Source of the DNA: the human T2T-CHM13v2.0 reference genome, Homo sapiens
Strand: one strand, 5' to 3'
DNA length: 64,000 nt
NCBI RefSeq assembly: GCF_009914755.1
Contig: NC_060927.1
The position numbers and the translations under genes are program-made. The notes below the pieces were generated by a model. The model did no database searches. It worked only from the letters and a program-made list of their open reading frames with translations, and was not told the DNA's origin. This document shows, piece after piece, positions 16,901 to 21,797 of this stretch (its first letter is position 1; each line of letters opens with the position of its first letter).

Positions 16901-18605
16901 TTAGGATTCTCCTCTCAGTGGTTATTTAGGTGGTTTTTTATTTTGTTTAGTTTTCTGCTTTTCTGAATAGTGATGTAAACATTTTATTACATATTTTCTG
17001 GAGCGTATGCATCTAAGGTATATAGCTAGGAGTTAAATTGCTAGGTCATTGAGTATGTGCGTGTTCAACTTTTCATGATCATGTTAGTATTGGCATTATT
17101 TTTCAAAGTGGAAATTGTGTAAATTTACATACATTCTAGCAGTGCTTAAGAGCTCTTCTGTCCATCCACATCATCATCAGCTTTGGGTATTATTGGACTT
17201 CCTAATTGGACTTCTCCTGGATGTGAAATTATATCTCATTGTGATGCTAGCATTCCCCTGATTATTACTGAGATTGATCATCTTTTCCTTTGTTTTAGAC
17301 CATTCTGTTTCATTATCTATGAAATACCTAGTTTTAGGTAAGTCTTAAGCTCACTTTTTTTTTCTCAAATTATGATTCGTTGATTTATTGGAGTTCTTTA
17401 TGTACTCTGGATACTAATTATTTGTTGGTTTTATGTTTGCAAATATCTTTTCTCACTTGTAACTTGTCTTTTTTTCGAGATGGAGTCTTGCTCCGTCACC
17501 CAGGCTGGAGTGCAGTGGCAAGATCCTGGCTCACTGCAACGTTCGCCTCCCGGGTTCAAGCGATTCTCCTGCTTCAGCCTCCCAAGTAGCTGGGATTACA
17601 GGTGCATGCCACCACACGTGGCTAATTTTTTATATTTTTGGTAGAGATGGGGTTTCAGCATGTTGGCCAGGCTGGTCTTGATCTCCTGACCTCAAGTGAT
17701 CTGCCCACCTCAGCCTCCCAAAGTGCTCGGATTACAGGCGTGAGCCACCACACCTGGCCTGGACAGAAGTTCTTAATTTTACTGTAGTCAGATATTGAAG
17801 TCTTCTCTCTTAAGGTTAATGCTTTTTGAATTATTGTTTAAGAAATCCTAATCTCAAGGTCAAAAAGACCTACAATATTTTCTTCCAAAATTTTGAAGTT
17901 TTGCCTTTAATGCTTAAGATTTTTCTTCTTTTTTTTTTTTTGTATTTTATAAAAAAAATAGAGACAAGGTCTTGCCATGTTGCCCATGCCAATCCCAAAC
18001 TCCTGGGCTCAGGCAGTCCTCCCACCTCGGCCTCCCAAAGTGTTGGGATTGTAGGCGTGAGCCACTGCACCTGGCCATTAAGGCTTTTTTCTATCTGGAA
18101 TTGATTTTGGAGTGTGATGTGAAGCAGAAATTCAATTTGATTTTTTTTCCATGTGGATAACTAGTTGTCCCAACACCATTTTTTAAGTGGACTCTCTTTT
18201 CCATATTATCTGCAATGCCATTTCTGTCATTTATCAAGTTTACATATATATGGGATGTATTTCTGACTGCTTATTCTGTTCATTTGGTCGGTTTGTTTCA
18301 GTACCACAATTTCCTAATTTCTATTGCTTTATAGGTGTTGACATCTGATAGGGCAGTTCTGCCTACCTTATTCTTTTAAATTTTTGGGGGGGATTAATTT
18401 ATCCCTACTGCTTCTCCATTTTATAGACTTATTCTTACCCACCAGCTTCATGGCCTTTATGATTCAAATATGTGCATCAATAAAAGTATGGATTACTACT
18501 TATCATGCACTTTCAGCATCCTTTGTGACTGTGTTAAAGCTTAGTCTTAACCCCACTGATCCCAAGGGCATTCTTTCCATGCAGTCTGGGCACTTAACTG
18601 TTCTT

Positions 18606-19161
18606 TTTTTTTTTTCCTGGGTGCAGGCATTTATTTTTTTAAAAATTTTAGATTTTTAGGGGGTACACGTGCAAGTTTGTTACATAGGCATATTGTGTGA
18701 TGCTGAGGTTTGGGTTTCCATTGAACCTGTCACCCAAATAGTGTACAGAGAACCCAATATGTCGTCAATATGTAGTTTTTCTTTTCTTTTCTTTTGAGAC
18801 AGAGTCTTGTTCTGTCCCCCAGGCTGGAGTGCAATGGCACGATCTTGGCTCACTGCAATCTCCACCTCCCAGGTTCAAGTGATTGTCCTGCCTCAGCCTC
18901 CCAAGTAGCTGGGACTACAGGTGCATGCCACCACACCTGGCTAATTTTTGTATTTTTAGTAGAGACGGGGTTTCACCATGTTGGCCAGGCTGGTCTTGAA
19001 CTCCTGACCTCAGGTGATCCGCCCGCCTTGGCCTCGCAAAGTGCTGGGATTATAGGCGTAAGCCACTGTGCCCGGCCAATATGTCATTTTTCAACCCTTA
19101 TCTCCCTCCTTCCTTCCCTCCCTCCCTCCTCTCATCGTCCTCAGTGTCTATTGTTGCCATC
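18606..19161 (-). mobile_element. 3' transduced segment of the SVA (old L1 3' end interrupted by an AluS at ~18776-19077) with its own AATAAA and poly(A)
   Basis: TSD TTAACTGTTCTT at 18594-18605 and 20397-20408; T-run to 18615; TTTATT at 18630-18635. Confidence 0.85.
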
Positions 19162-20396
19162 TTTTTTTTTTTTTTAATTGATCATTCTTGGGTGTTTCTC
19201 GCAGAGGGGGATTTGGCAGGGTCACAGGACAACAGTGGAGGGAAGGTCAGCAGACAAACAAGTGAACAAAGGTCTCTGGTTTTTCTAGGCAGAGGACCCT
19301 GGGGCCTTCCGCAGTGTTTGTATCCCTGGGTACTTGAGATTAGGGAGTGGTGATGACTCTTAAGGAGCATGCTGCCTTCAAGCATCTGTTTAACAAAGCA
19401 CATCTTGCACCACCCTTAATCCATTTAACCCTGAGTGGACACAGCACATATTTCAGAGAGCACCGGGTTGGGGGTAAGCTCATAGATCAACAGCATCCCG
19501 AGGCAGAAGAATTTTTCTTAGTACAGAACAAAATGGAGTCTCCTATGTCTACTTCTTTCTACACAGACACAGCAACAATCTGATTTCTCTATCTTTTCCC
19601 CACATTTCCCCCTTTTCTATTCGACAAAACCGCCATCGTCATCATGGCCCGTTCTCAATGAGCTGTTGGGTACACCTCCCAGACGGGGCGGCGGCCGGGC
19701 AGAGGGGCTCCTCACTTCCCAGAAGGGGCAGCTGCCGGGCGGAGGGGCTCCTCACTTCTCAGACGGGGCGGCCGGGCAGAGATGCTCCTCACCTTCCAGA
19801 TGGGGTCGCGGCCGGGCAGAGGCGCTCCTCACATCCCAGACGGGGCGGCAGGGCAGAGGCGCTCCCCACAGCTCAGACGAGAGATGCTCCTCACTTCCCA
19901 GACTGGGCAGCCGGGCAGAGGGGCTCCTCACGTCCCAGATGATGGGCAGCCAGGCAGAGACGCTCCTCACTTCCCAGACGGGTTGGCGGCCGGGCAGAGG
20001 CTGCAATCTCGGCACTTTGGGAGGCCAAGGCAGGCGGCTGGGAGGTGGAGGTTGTAGCTAGCCGAGATCACGCCACTGCACTCCAGCCTGGGCAACATTG
20101 AGCACTGAGTGAACGAGACTCCATCTGCAATCCCGGCACCTCGGGAGGCCGAGGCTGGCGGATCACTCGCGGTTAGGAGCTGGAGACCAGCCCGGCCAAC
20201 ACAGCGAAACCCCGTCTCCACCAAAAAAATAACGAAAACCAGTCAGGCGTGGCGGCGCGCGCCTGCACTGGGCAGGCTGAGGCAGGAGAATCAGGCAGGG
20301 AGGTTGCAGTGAGCAGAGATGGCGGAGTACAGTCCAGCTTCGGCTCGGCATCAGAGGGAGACCGTGGGGAGAGGGAGGGGGAGGGGGAGGGGGAGG
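19162..20396 (-). mobile_element. Full-length SVA retrotransposon, antisense to KLHL18 (older subfamily likely; not resolved)
   Basis: On the minus strand: (CCCCCT/CCCTCT)n hexamer ~20366-20396, Alu-like domain ~19995-20365, GC-rich VNTR ~19670-19995 (gggcagaggcgctcctcac units), SINE-R ~19176-19665, poly(A) ~19162-19175. Confidence 0.95.
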
Positions 20397-21797
20397 TTAA
20401 CTGTTCTTAATGCCTTATGTATATTCATTGTGAGCTCCTGAAGGTAGGAACAGTAGTATCAAAATGTTTTCCATCAAAGAGAAATCTACTCTGGGTATAT
20501 CTTTTACTTTCTTTGGGAACACCTGTCTCAGATTACTCCTAACTCAGATTTTGCCAGGCTGCTTTACTGTTTGAATGCTGAGCCCCACCTGCCTGTGGTA
20601 GGGAACAGAATTTGTGTTGAGCAGCCCTGTCTGAGGTAGCAGAGCTGGTGAGGGCCTTCTGATTCCATCCAGTCTCTATGCCACATTGCCTGTCTGGTGG
20701 ACCTACACTCTTTTCTACCTCCAGACATCTTCCTGCTTCTCTTCTCATTTCCTTTCTGTGTACCTCCCTTCTGTGTCTTCTTTGCTGATAGATCCTCTAC
20801 TAGGTGATCTTTAGATGTTGAAGTTCTTCAAGGCTGTCTTATAGCCTCTTTTCTTCACACTTCGAGTTCTCTCCCTGAATGATCTTTTTTCTGTCTTCAC
20901 TGATTATTTCCAAAAGTGTTATTTGAGCCCAGACTTATCTCTGTATACCAGACTCTGTCATCCACTTTCTACATAGTCTCTGTTTAGATGCCTCCCAGGC
21001 ACTCGGTGTCAGCTTGTCCAAAACTTTATTTGGTCATTTACTCCTGACTTTGTCCTTCTCTGTCGTTTCTGATCTAAGTATATGGCACCTCCACATGCCA
21101 GATCGCACCAGTAACCTGGAAGTCATCTTGACACCTCTTTTCCCTCACTCCCACATCTACTCAGTCACCAGGTCACAGCAGTTCTAAGGTCAGCATCTTT
21201 CCTGAGTCTGACTTCTTTTCTCCTTTCCCACTGCCACCATCCAGGCCGAGCTCAGCTCTTCTCTCTCTGGACCAGGCAGTGGTCTCATGGCTGGACTCCT
21301 AGCTGCCACTCCTGTCCCTCCAGTTCATACTCTATCTCCACAGAGTGGCCTGGTCAGCTTCGAATTTCTTCCTTAGTCCTGTTCCCTGGTTTCCTGATAC
21401 TTTTTTTTTTTTTTGATCTGGAGTCTCGCTCTGTCGCCCAGGCTGGAATGCAGTGGCGCGATCTTGGCTCACTGCAAGCTCTGCCTCCTGGGTTCATGCC
21501 ATTCTCCTGCCTCAGCCTCCTGAGTAGCTGGGACTACAGGCGCCCACCGCTTCGCCCGGCTAATTTTTTGTATTTTTAGTAGAGACGGGGTTTTACCATG
21601 TTAGCCAGGATGACCTCGATCTTCTGGCCTCTTGATACTTTTAAAGTAACATGTAGAATTCTTGAGTGTCCCATCTATTTAGTCAGCCTCACATCACATC
21701 ACTTTGCTTTTCATAGCTGTTCTTGAATCATGGAAGCCACTGATCTCAAACATTTACCAAAGGAATAGTATGTTCATGATTTTAAAAACCAAGTATA

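What the first reader, a model, noticed from the sequence alone, without database searches (positions are those of the whole stretch)
18594..20408. SVA with a ~546-bp 3' transduction: foreign L1+Alu DNA imported into KLHL18 intron 1
Seen: no matching TSD copy lies next to the SVA's own poly(A) (~19162-19175). Instead TTAACTGTTCTT occurs right after the hexamer (20397-20408) and about 560 bp further out (18594-18605). There it abuts a second poly(A) that has AATAAA 14 nt upstream on the minus strand (TTTATT 18630-18635). The reconstructed empty site cacTTAACTGTTCTT/AAtgcc fits the L1 endonuclease TTTT/AA consensus. Established: SVAs transduce 3' flanks by read-through. Inference: 18616-19161 (an old L1 3' end plus an AluS) was copied from a source SVA locus elsewhere. 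Repeat annotation would show it as local old repeats, yet it would be a barcode for the parent element.
Basis: partly seen in the sequence, partly recalled or inferred. Interest (0 to 1): 0.8.

Follow-up and report, generated by a model that had tools for sequence, protein, structure and literature searches.

The report
SVA insertion carrying imported chr17 DNA
A jumping-gene copy (SVA) in the first intron of KLHL18 brought about 550 bases of chromosome 17 DNA with it when it was copied, which is a well-known and ordinary side effect of how these elements spread.

Summary
TTAACTGTTCTT occurs exactly twice in the window: after the SVA hexamer (20397-20408) and before a T10 run (18594-18605). 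It brackets one 1,791-bp minus-strand insertion: a full-length SVA, its A14 tail, a 546-549-bp extra segment and a second A10 tail.

The extra segment is foreign. Its parent lies in the same assembly at chr17:44,723,440-44,723,995, with 17 substitutions in 546 aligned columns (96.9% identity). Other L1 copies match at 77-89%. Homology stops at the terminal poly(A) on one side and at the SVA tail on the other. It includes 14 nt of non-L1 chr17 flank and the same nested Alu.

- No SVA lies at or within about 20 kb of the chr17 parent. That site is an uninterrupted L1.
- No sibling insertion exists in this assembly.
- The chr17 parent lacks the AATAAA seen in the copy. It has ATTAAA about 22 nt upstream of the cleavage point.

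The chr17 breakpoint (GCCATCTTT/ATGTCC) is a recurrent retroelement target in other copies of this L1 family. That favours read-through from a source SVA that was later lost (about 0.75). Template switching cannot be excluded (about 0.17). Divergence suggests the event predates the human-chimpanzee split. This is an ordinary instance of a known mechanism and of low interest.

The parts
18594..18605 (.). Target-site duplication, left copy (TTAACTGTTCTT)
   Evidence: Exact 12-mer. It is one of only 2 matches in the window at up to 1 mismatch (family D15). It directly precedes the T10 run.
18606..18615 (-). Terminal poly(A) tail of the whole insertion (A10 on the minus strand)
   Evidence: Read. 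Homology to the chr17 parent begins immediately after it, and chr17 has unrelated sequence at this point.
18616..18629 (-). 14 nt of non-L1 chr17 flank, carried between the old L1's A-rich tail and the new poly(A)
   Evidence: Identical in chr17. The 17-mer spanning it occurs exactly 3 times in the 3.1-Gb assembly: window, chr17 parent and one unrelated chr12 site.
18630..18635 (-). AATAAA hexamer, 14 nt upstream of the poly(A) addition point
   Evidence: Read. The chr17 parent has T instead of A at the position matching 18633, plus a 3-bp length difference beside it. It therefore lacks AATAAA and has ATTAAA about 22 nt from the same cleavage point.
18630..18775 (-). Imported segment, part 1: the 3' end of an old L1 (A-rich tail and distal 3' UTR)
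   Evidence: 96% identical to chr17, against 77-89% for the 38 other scored L1-type matches. The chr17 element continues upstream into ORF2p-coding sequence on the minus strand (E 1.3e-14 to solved LINE-1 ORF2p, residues 1194-1237 of 1275).
18776..19075 (-). Imported segment, part 2: an Alu nested in the L1, with its A-rich tail at 18776-18795
   Evidence: Rfam Metazoa_SRP partial matches on the minus strand at 18794-18941 (46.4 bits) and 18960-19076 (56.3 bits), both below the gathering score of 70, as expected for Alu. TRF finds TTTTC x3.8 at 18777-18795. A 10-bp direct repeat CCAATATGTC lies at 18754-18763 and 19076-19085 (family D18). The same Alu sits at the same place in chr17. The subfamily was not determined.
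19076..19164 (-). Imported segment, part 3: the L1 3' UTR upstream of the Alu. Its last 3 bases (19162-19164, TTT) are shared between the L1 and the SVA tail.
   Evidence: 98% identical to chr17 over query 1-86. The alignment ends at GCCATCTTT.
19162..19175 (-). The SVA's own poly(A) tract (A11-A14), now internal
   Evidence: Read. At least 13 other SVA copies match the adjoining 56 nt (19160-19215) at 100%.
19176..19664 (-). SVA SINE-R region
   Evidence: The 490-nt query matches 39 other scored genomic copies end to end at 97-98%; 2,549 first-look candidates. The name SINE-R is recalled; no repeat library was available.
19665..20001 (-). SVA VNTR (short, about 8-9 units of 37-40 bp)
   Evidence: TRF 19673-20001, period 40, 8.8 copies. 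The repeat finder families D1 and D2.
20002..20365 (-). SVA Alu-like region (Alu fragments antisense to the SVA)
   Evidence: Weak Metazoa_SRP match on the plus strand at 20104-20220 (24.1 bits, E 9e-4), i.e. opposite to the SVA's orientation. Internal 37-nt repeat D5. Boundaries are approximate.
20366..20396 (-). SVA 5' hexamer-type repeat; the element is full length
   Evidence: TRF period 6, 5.2 copies, 92% matches. It abuts the right TSD copy.
20397..20408 (.). Target-site duplication, right copy (TTAACTGTTCTT), followed by AATGCC

Best explanation
A single L1-mediated retrotransposition event placed a 1,791-bp composite (18606-20396, minus strand) into KLHL18 intron 1, antisense to the gene.

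Shown: the composite is a full-length SVA, then its own A-tract, then 546-549 nt copied from chr17:44,723,440-44,723,995. That chr17 piece is the last part of an old minus-strand L1 with a nested Alu, plus 14 nt of unique flank. A new poly(A) tail follows, and a perfect 12-bp target-site duplication at a TTCTT/AA nick site encloses the whole.

Inferred mechanism:
1. A source SVA once sat in the chr17 L1 at GCCATCTTT/ATGTCC, in the same orientation.
2. Its transcript read through the SVA's own poly(A) site.
3. The transcript was cleaved and polyadenylated 14 nt past the old L1's A-rich tail, using that L1's AATAAA or ATTAAA signal.
4. The transcript was then inserted on chr3.
5. The source SVA allele was never fixed, or was lost, so the assembly carries the empty chr17 site.

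The event most likely predates the human-chimpanzee split.
For: - The TSD is exact and placed at both ends of the composite. No alternative TSD exists for the SVA alone.
- The parent locus shows 546 aligned columns, 17 substitutions and 2 indels of 3 and 10 bp in homopolymer or tail runs. The other 38 scored L1-type matches are only 77-89% identical.
- Homology boundaries coincide with the two poly(A) tracts. At chr17 the L1 runs on uninterrupted. All 6 of 6 other L1 copies gave an alignment spanning the breakpoint, and the 3 alignments printed read CCATCTTTATGTC continuously. This fixes the direction as chr17 to chr3.
- The chr17 element is an L1 on the minus strand (ORF2p match, E 1.3e-14). 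The SVA, the L1 and the Alu are therefore co-oriented, as read-through requires.
- The breakpoint is a recurrent target for poly(A) retroelements in the required orientation. I checked the second exact match plus the 12 one-mismatch matches whose last bases are all T, 13 loci in all. Of these, 6 carry an Alu tail abutting CCATC by BLAST, 2 more by reading, and 3 carry another L1 3' end: chr10 and an X/Y pair.
- The SVA's private branch length in SINE-R is 1.8%. This agrees with half the segment-parent divergence (1.56%), as expected if both arrived together.
- Passages of PMC12593883 show that 3' transduction is common: 127 of 217 transduction-bearing non-reference SVAs carry a 3' one. Those passages also say 84% of transduction-carrying SVAs are traced to source elements, so the remainder are not.
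Against: - No SVA lies at the parent site or within chr17:44,704,000-44,743,900: 0 SINE-R and 0 VNTR hits at E<=1e-5. The source element is therefore inferred, not seen.
- No sibling carries the same barcode in this assembly.
- The parent lacks the AATAAA present in the copy, so the signal actually used is uncertain.
- The TTT microhomology at the junction is equally compatible with template switching.
- No outgroup or population data could be examined.
Confidence: 0.75

Rival explanations
1. Template-switch chimera. The L1 reverse transcriptase first copied the 3' end of an SVA-independent, polyadenylated chr17 RNA that terminated at the old L1's poly(A) region. After about 549 nt it jumped onto the poly(A) tail of an SVA RNA and copied that to its 5' end. 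No SVA ever sat on chr17.
For: - There is no SVA at or near the chr17 parent, and there are no siblings.
- The junction carries a 3-nt T/A microhomology.
- A template switch between an mRNA and an SVA RNA has been proposed for another SVA composite (passages of PMC12593883).
- The product would have the same single TSD and two A-tracts.
Against: - The switch point would coincide by chance with a site that is a proven recurrent endonuclease target in other copies of this L1.
- The reverse transcriptase would have passed longer A-rich stretches, such as the Alu tail, without switching.
- Read-through transduction is much the commoner route in the passages read.
- No evidence for an independent chr17 transcript was available.
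Confidence: 0.17
2. Two separate events. A retrocopy of the chr17 RNA inserted on chr3 first, with the 12-bp TSD. An SVA later landed exactly at that retrocopy's 5' edge.
For: The same sequence order would result. SVA and L1-type insertions do cluster at T-rich sites.
Against: - The SVA has no TSD of its own. The bases left of its tail and right of its hexamer do not match.
- The SVA would have had to insert between the last base of the retrocopy and the first base of the older TSD without duplicating or deleting anything.
- SINE-R and segment divergences agree with a single age.
Confidence: 0.03
3. The L1/Alu stretch is local old repeat DNA, the SVA inserted beside it, and the 12-bp repeat is coincidence.
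For: Repeat annotation alone would read it that way. The unanchored shuffle control is weak: 13 of 100 shuffles had 2 or more near-matches.
Against: - The chr17 parent is at 96.9% identity, against 77-89% for other copies.
- It shares the identical nested Alu and 14 nt of non-L1 flank.
- The homology stops exactly at the two A-tracts.
- The anchored chance of the 12-mer agreement is about 6e-8 (my arithmetic).
Confidence: 0.01

Closest known systems
SVA 3' transduction (read-through of the SVA poly(A) site, flank co-mobilised by L1 in trans)
   Same: - The order is the same: SVA, own A-tract, foreign unique or repeat DNA, second poly(A).
- A single TSD encloses everything.
- The foreign DNA is traceable to one other locus.
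- A poly(A) hexamer lies upstream of the new tail.

The phenomenon and its frequency come from passages of PMC12593883, PMC9311842 and PMC10681720. The first genome-wide catalogue (Xing et al. 2006, PNAS) is recalled only; it could not be opened.
   Different: - The parent locus carries no SVA in this assembly.
- This copy is old (3.1% from its parent) and is the only copy with this imported segment, whereas the papers read deal mostly with young polymorphic SVA_D-F insertions.
- The transduced DNA consists almost entirely of older repeats (L1 3' end plus Alu), so it is invisible to repeat-masked transduction screens.
L1 3' transduction
   Same: The logic is the same: a weak element poly(A) signal is bypassed and a downstream signal is used. 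The title of Goodier et al. 2000 was seen only in the reference list of PMC12593883.
   Different: The mobilised element is the non-autonomous SVA. The downstream signal used belongs to an old, dead L1.
Template-switch SVA composites (the SVA-CKS1B processed-pseudogene case in PMC12593883)
   Same: A full-length SVA is joined to a 5'-truncated copy of another polyadenylated RNA within one TSD.
   Different: In the published case the authors argued from the absence of an A-tract between concatenated parts (passage read). Here an A11-14 tract separates the parts, and the junction on the parent is an endonuclease-type site.
Orphan transductions
   Same: Both rely on tracing imported flank DNA to a parent locus.
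   Different: In an orphan transduction the element is missing at the offspring site (PMC12593883 passage). Here the element is missing at the parent site.

Membership tests
Full-length SVA retrotransposon | 5' hexamer-type simple repeat | tested here: met
   TRF 20366-20396, period 6, 5.2 copies. The unit on the minus strand is CTCCCC-like rather than the textbook unit, which is recalled.
Full-length SVA retrotransposon | Alu-like region made of antisense Alu fragments | tested here: met
   Weak 7SL/SRP match on the strand opposite to the SVA at 20104-20220 (24.1 bits, E 9e-4). Read.
Full-length SVA retrotransposon | GC-rich VNTR of units of about 35-50 bp | tested here: met
   TRF 19673-20001, period 40, 8.8 copies. 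Families D1 and D2.
Full-length SVA retrotransposon | SINE-R region shared with other SVA copies, ending in a poly(A) tract | tested here: met
   490 nt match 39 other scored copies at 97-98% over the full length. The 3' end plus tail is identical over 56 nt in at least 13 copies. No curated repeat library was available, so the subfamily (A-F) was not assigned.
L1-mediated (TPRT) insertion | Target-site duplication, terminal poly(A), and a T-rich/A nick site on the strand that primes | tested here: met
   12-bp exact TSD, an A10 tail, and a plus-strand empty site ...TTCTT/AA. The endonuclease consensus itself is recalled.
3' transduction | Extra non-element DNA lies between the element's own A-tract and a second poly(A), all inside one TSD | tested here: met
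3' transduction | The extra DNA maps to one other locus, with homology ending at the poly(A) addition point and at the element's tail | tested here: met
   chr17:44,723,440-44,723,995; 546 columns, 17 substitutions.
3' transduction | A poly(A) signal lies 10-30 nt upstream of the new tail | tested here: met
   AATAAA lies 14 nt upstream in the copy. The parent as it stands has only ATTAAA, about 22 nt upstream. Which was used is unknown.
3' transduction | Corroborating rather than defining: a source element sits immediately upstream of the parent sequence | tested here: not met
   0 SINE-R and 0 VNTR hits in chr17:44,704,000-44,743,900. The site is an uninterrupted L1. Sources can be non-reference or untraced: 84% of transduction-carrying SVAs were traced to sources, 9 of the 55 sources being non-reference, in PMC12593883 passages. 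This lowers certainty about the route, not about importation.
Template-switch chimeric retrocopy | An independent polyadenylated RNA from the parent locus, and a junction without an endonuclease signature on the parent | tested here: inconclusive
   The transcript cannot be tested with these tools. The junction has TTT microhomology, but it also coincides with a recurrent endonuclease target.

The most novel reading that the evidence does not exclude
No SVA ever resided on chr17. On this reading the composite is a template-switch chimera. The L1 reverse transcriptase began on a polyadenylated chr17 RNA that was terminated by a long-dead L1's own poly(A) region, then jumped onto an SVA RNA tail. 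This would be an ancient fixed example of SVA capturing foreign sequence without read-through. Some 'sourceless' SVA transductions made of old repeats might then be chimeras of this kind.
Probability: 0.17. Interest if true: 0.3.

Novelty: already known. Interest (0 to 1): 0.17.

Why it matters
The practical value is modest.

- It is a clean, fully bounded example in which about 550 bp that any repeat annotation would call local old L1 and Alu was in fact imported from another chromosome a few to about 15 million years ago.
- Such segments can mislead repeat-based dating, synteny and orthology calls. Transduction screens that discard repeat-masked flanks will miss them.
- The segment ties this KLHL18 insertion to a precise chr17 site where a source SVA is predicted to have existed. 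Ape and pangenome assemblies can test that prediction directly.
- Nothing suggests an effect on KLHL18. The element is antisense and deep in intron 1, and the RefSeq functional elements given with the finding do not overlap it.

Tried and rejected
- **Literature on this instance.** 'KLHL18' plus 'SVA' as whole words gave 4 papers. Judged from the search listing only (title and start of abstract), none concerns the retrotransposon.
- **Papers not held.** The catalogues most likely to list this instance could not be opened: Xing et al. 2006, Hancks et al. 2009 and Damert et al. 2009. I therefore cannot say whether this locus is already in print.
- **Supplements of PMC12593883.** I searched for KLHL18 and for coordinate prefixes that I estimated from memory for GRCh38. 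There were no relevant rows. This is a weak negative, because that study covers polymorphic non-reference SVAs and my coordinates are estimates.
- **Pfam.** A scan of the chr17 L1 open frame gave 0 families. The PDB sequence search then identified it as LINE-1 ORF2p.
- **Second exact junction match.** The chr10 match to the 21-mer is an unrelated L1-in-L1 insertion, not a sibling.
- **Third exact flank match.** The chr12 match to the 17-mer is an unrelated chance match.
- **One-mismatch junction matches.** I checked the 12 listed one-mismatch matches whose last bases are all T; 0 of 12 has an SVA end. The other listed one-mismatch matches were not checked, nor were the 2-mismatch matches, 387 of which were not listed.
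- **Not attempted.** SVA subfamily naming was not attempted because no consensus library is held and none was built. Polarising the 17 differences with repeat consensus sequences was also not done, for the same reason.
- **A script error.** My regular expression matched nothing. I replaced it with coordinate-based printing.
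Full report
**Observation.** Reading 18300-20700 shows every feature at the stated coordinates.
- TTAACTGTTCTT lies at 18594-18605 and is followed by ten T (18606-18615).
- TTTATT lies at 18630-18635.
- A T14 run lies at 19162-19175 and is followed by sequence that many SVA copies share.
- A hexamer-type repeat lies at 20366-20396 (TRF).
- It is followed at once by the second TTAACTGTTCTT (20397-20408) and then by AATGCC.

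One search found only these 2 matches in the whole window at up to one mismatch, and both are exact. One search (family D15) found the same pair. The tool's own shuffle control is weak: 13 of 100 shuffles had 2 or more near-matches. The weight therefore lies in the placement. Two given 12-mers agree by chance at about 6e-8 (my arithmetic). The bases left of the SVA's own tail and right of the hexamer do not match, so the SVA alone has no duplication.

**Anatomy.** Everything lies on the minus strand. Reading 5' to 3' on that strand, the parts are:
1. Hexamer repeat (20396-20366).
2. Alu-like region. It gives a weak 7SL match on the opposite strand at 20104-20220.
3. VNTR of 8.8 units of 40 bp (19673-20001).
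4. A 490-nt SINE-R region (19664-19176). It aligns end to end at 97-98% with 39 other scored copies.
5. An A11-14 tract.
6. The extra segment.
7. An A10 tail.

The extra segment consists of the 3' end of an L1 split by an Alu.
- The Alu gives Rfam 7SL partial matches on the minus strand at 18794-18941 and 18960-19076.
- Its A-rich tail lies at 18777-18795.
- A 10-bp direct repeat, CCAATATGTC, lies at 18754-18763 and 19076-19085.

On the plus strand the empty site would read ...TTCTT/AATGCC, and the T run continues directly from the left duplication copy. That is the geometry expected if the nicked plus strand primed reverse transcription on a poly(A) tail.

**Parent locus.** I searched the window's own assembly with 18606-18800.
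- There were 1,272 first-look candidates, of which 40 were scored.
- Apart from the window itself, one match stands out: chr17:44,723,440-44,723,616 at 96%, starting exactly at window base 18616.
- The other 38 scored matches are 77-89% identical.

A second query across the L1/SVA junction (19079-19215) gave chr17 at 98% for bases 1-86 only. The other 38 scored matches cover only the SVA end.

The pairwise alignment and the count give 546 aligned columns, 17 substitutions and two indels. Eight substitutions are in CpG context and nine are not. The indels are 3 bp in the L1 A-rich tail and 10 bp in the Alu tail.

The boundaries are sharp on both sides.
- On the left, homology begins at the first base after the A10 tail, and chr17 continues with unrelated unique DNA.
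- On the right, it ends at GCCATCTTT. From there the window continues with the SVA tail and chr17 continues with L1 sequence.

The 14 nt between the L1's A-rich tail and the new poly(A) are not L1. A 17-mer covering them occurs exactly three times in 3.1 Gb: the window, chr17 and an unrelated chr12 site.

The chr17 repeat is an L1 on the minus strand. Its upstream continuation encodes residues matching 1194-1237 of solved LINE-1 ORF2p (E 1.3e-14). Pfam found nothing. The segment is therefore imported, and the direction is chr17 to chr3.

**What is missing.** The chr17 site carries no SVA.
- Across the breakpoint, all 6 of 6 other L1 copies gave a spanning alignment. The three printed alignments read CCATCTTTATGTC without interruption. 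The site is therefore a true empty site, not a scar.
- BLAST of the SINE-R and VNTR parts against chr17:44,704,000-44,743,900 gave no hit at E<=1e-5.
- No other locus in the assembly carries the segment.
- The only other exact match to the 21-nt junction is an unrelated L1-in-L1 insertion on chr10.
- I fetched the 12 listed one-mismatch matches whose last bases are all T. None of the 12 has an SVA end. The other listed one-mismatch matches and the 2-mismatch matches, 387 of them not listed, were not checked.

**The breakpoint is a real insertion hot spot.** The same 13 loci show that poly(A) retroelements have entered other copies of this L1 family at this very position and in this orientation.
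- Six have an Alu whose tail abuts CCATC by BLAST.
- Two more do so by reading. One of them, L055, has a short Alu fragment followed by a repeated GTTGCCATTTTT and the resumed L1.
- Three carry another L1 3' end: chr10 and an X/Y pair that is probably one event.
- Two of the 13 are plain T-run variants.

A source SVA sitting at GCCATCTTT/ATGTCC on chr17 is therefore entirely plausible.

**The polyadenylation signal.** The parent as it now stands has T at that position and a 3-bp shorter run, so it has no AATAAA. It has ATTAAA about 22 nt from the same cleavage point. Either state may be ancestral, so the signal actually used is unknown. On chr17 the cleavage point is followed at once by TGTCTG (read, minus strand). 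That would suit a downstream GU-rich element; this is an inference.

**Age.**
- Segment against parent: 17 of 546, or 3.1%, which is about 1.6% per lineage. Nine differences lie outside CpG context, roughly 1.7% of about 520 sites by my arithmetic. The Poisson range is wide.
- Pairwise-only analysis of 30 SINE-R copies gives this copy a private branch of 1.8% at all sites and 1.4% at non-CpG sites. It ranks 28th of 30. This agrees with the SVA and the segment arriving together.
- For comparison, human-chimpanzee divergence is about 1.2% in total. This figure is recalled, not tested. On that scale the event probably predates the human-chimpanzee split and falls within the main period of SVA expansion.
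- Presence in gorilla or orangutan cannot be decided from these counts.

**Mechanism.**
- The best reading is classical 3' transduction. A source SVA in the chr17 L1 was transcribed through its own poly(A) site. The transcript ended at the old L1's polyadenylation region and was inserted on chr3. The source allele was later lost, or was never fixed (0.75).
- The main rival is template switching from an independent chr17 RNA onto an SVA RNA tail (0.17). It yields the same product and explains the missing source. It requires the switch point to coincide with a recurrent endonuclease target, and it requires a transcript for which I have no evidence.
- Two successive insertions (0.03) and a chance duplication beside local repeats (0.01) are contradicted by the lack of a second duplication and by the parent locus.

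**Comparison with what is known.** SVA 3' transduction is well described. In passages I read:
[quoted passage not shown] Of those 217, 127 are 3' only.
- 84% of transduction-carrying SVAs are traced to 55 source elements. Template switching is reported as an additional route (PMC12593883).
- 162 high-confidence SVA 3' transductions from 63 progenitors were found in 3,202 genomes (PMC9311842).
- 748 3' transduction events were found among 7,554 insertions (PMC10681720).

This locus is an older instance with no other copy of the segment in this assembly (whether it is fixed in humans was not tested), and its imported DNA is almost all repeat. Whether it is already listed in the 2006 and 2009 catalogues could not be checked, because those papers are not held. 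The search for KLHL18 with SVA returned nothing relevant.

**Verdict.** The phenomenon is ordinary. The only open point is whether a now-absent source SVA or a template switch produced the composite.

Noticed in passing
L051 (chr10:86,655,300-86,655,950), L054-L064: The motif GCCATCTTT/ATGTCC in this old L1 family's 3' region is a recurrent target. Of 13 other copies examined, 8 carry an Alu and 3 carry another L1 3' end whose tail abuts CCATC, in the same orientation. L055 shows a short Alu fragment with a clear repeated GTTGCCATTTTT.
   Followed up: partly
L002:1501-1530 versus window 18616-18645: The chr17 parent lacks the AATAAA present in the chr3 copy (one substitution plus a 3-bp run-length change). 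It has ATTAAA further upstream. A poly(A) hexamer seen in a transduced copy need not be the one that was used.
   Followed up: yes
window 18892-18943 (minus): An Rfam mir-1268 match of 54.2 bits, below the gathering score of 83, lies inside the imported Alu. It is most likely just the Alu-derived nature of that family.
   Followed up: no
window 19160-19215: The last 56 nt of the SVA, including the tail, are 100% identical in at least 13 other SVA copies of the assembly. On the minus strand the element ends ...GATCAATT before the A run, so its own signal reads ATTAAA-like rather than AATAAA.
   Followed up: no
L002:3061-3177 (chr17:44,725,000-44,725,116): A run of GGGACAGA/GAGACAAGC-like units looks like a minisatellite about 1 kb from the parent segment.
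   Followed up: no
L063 (chrX:89,007,759-89,008,579) and L064 (chrY:3,812,265-3,813,085): The two loci are identical over the 120 nt printed, including the same L1-in-L1 insertion. This is consistent with an X-Y shared block.
   Followed up: no
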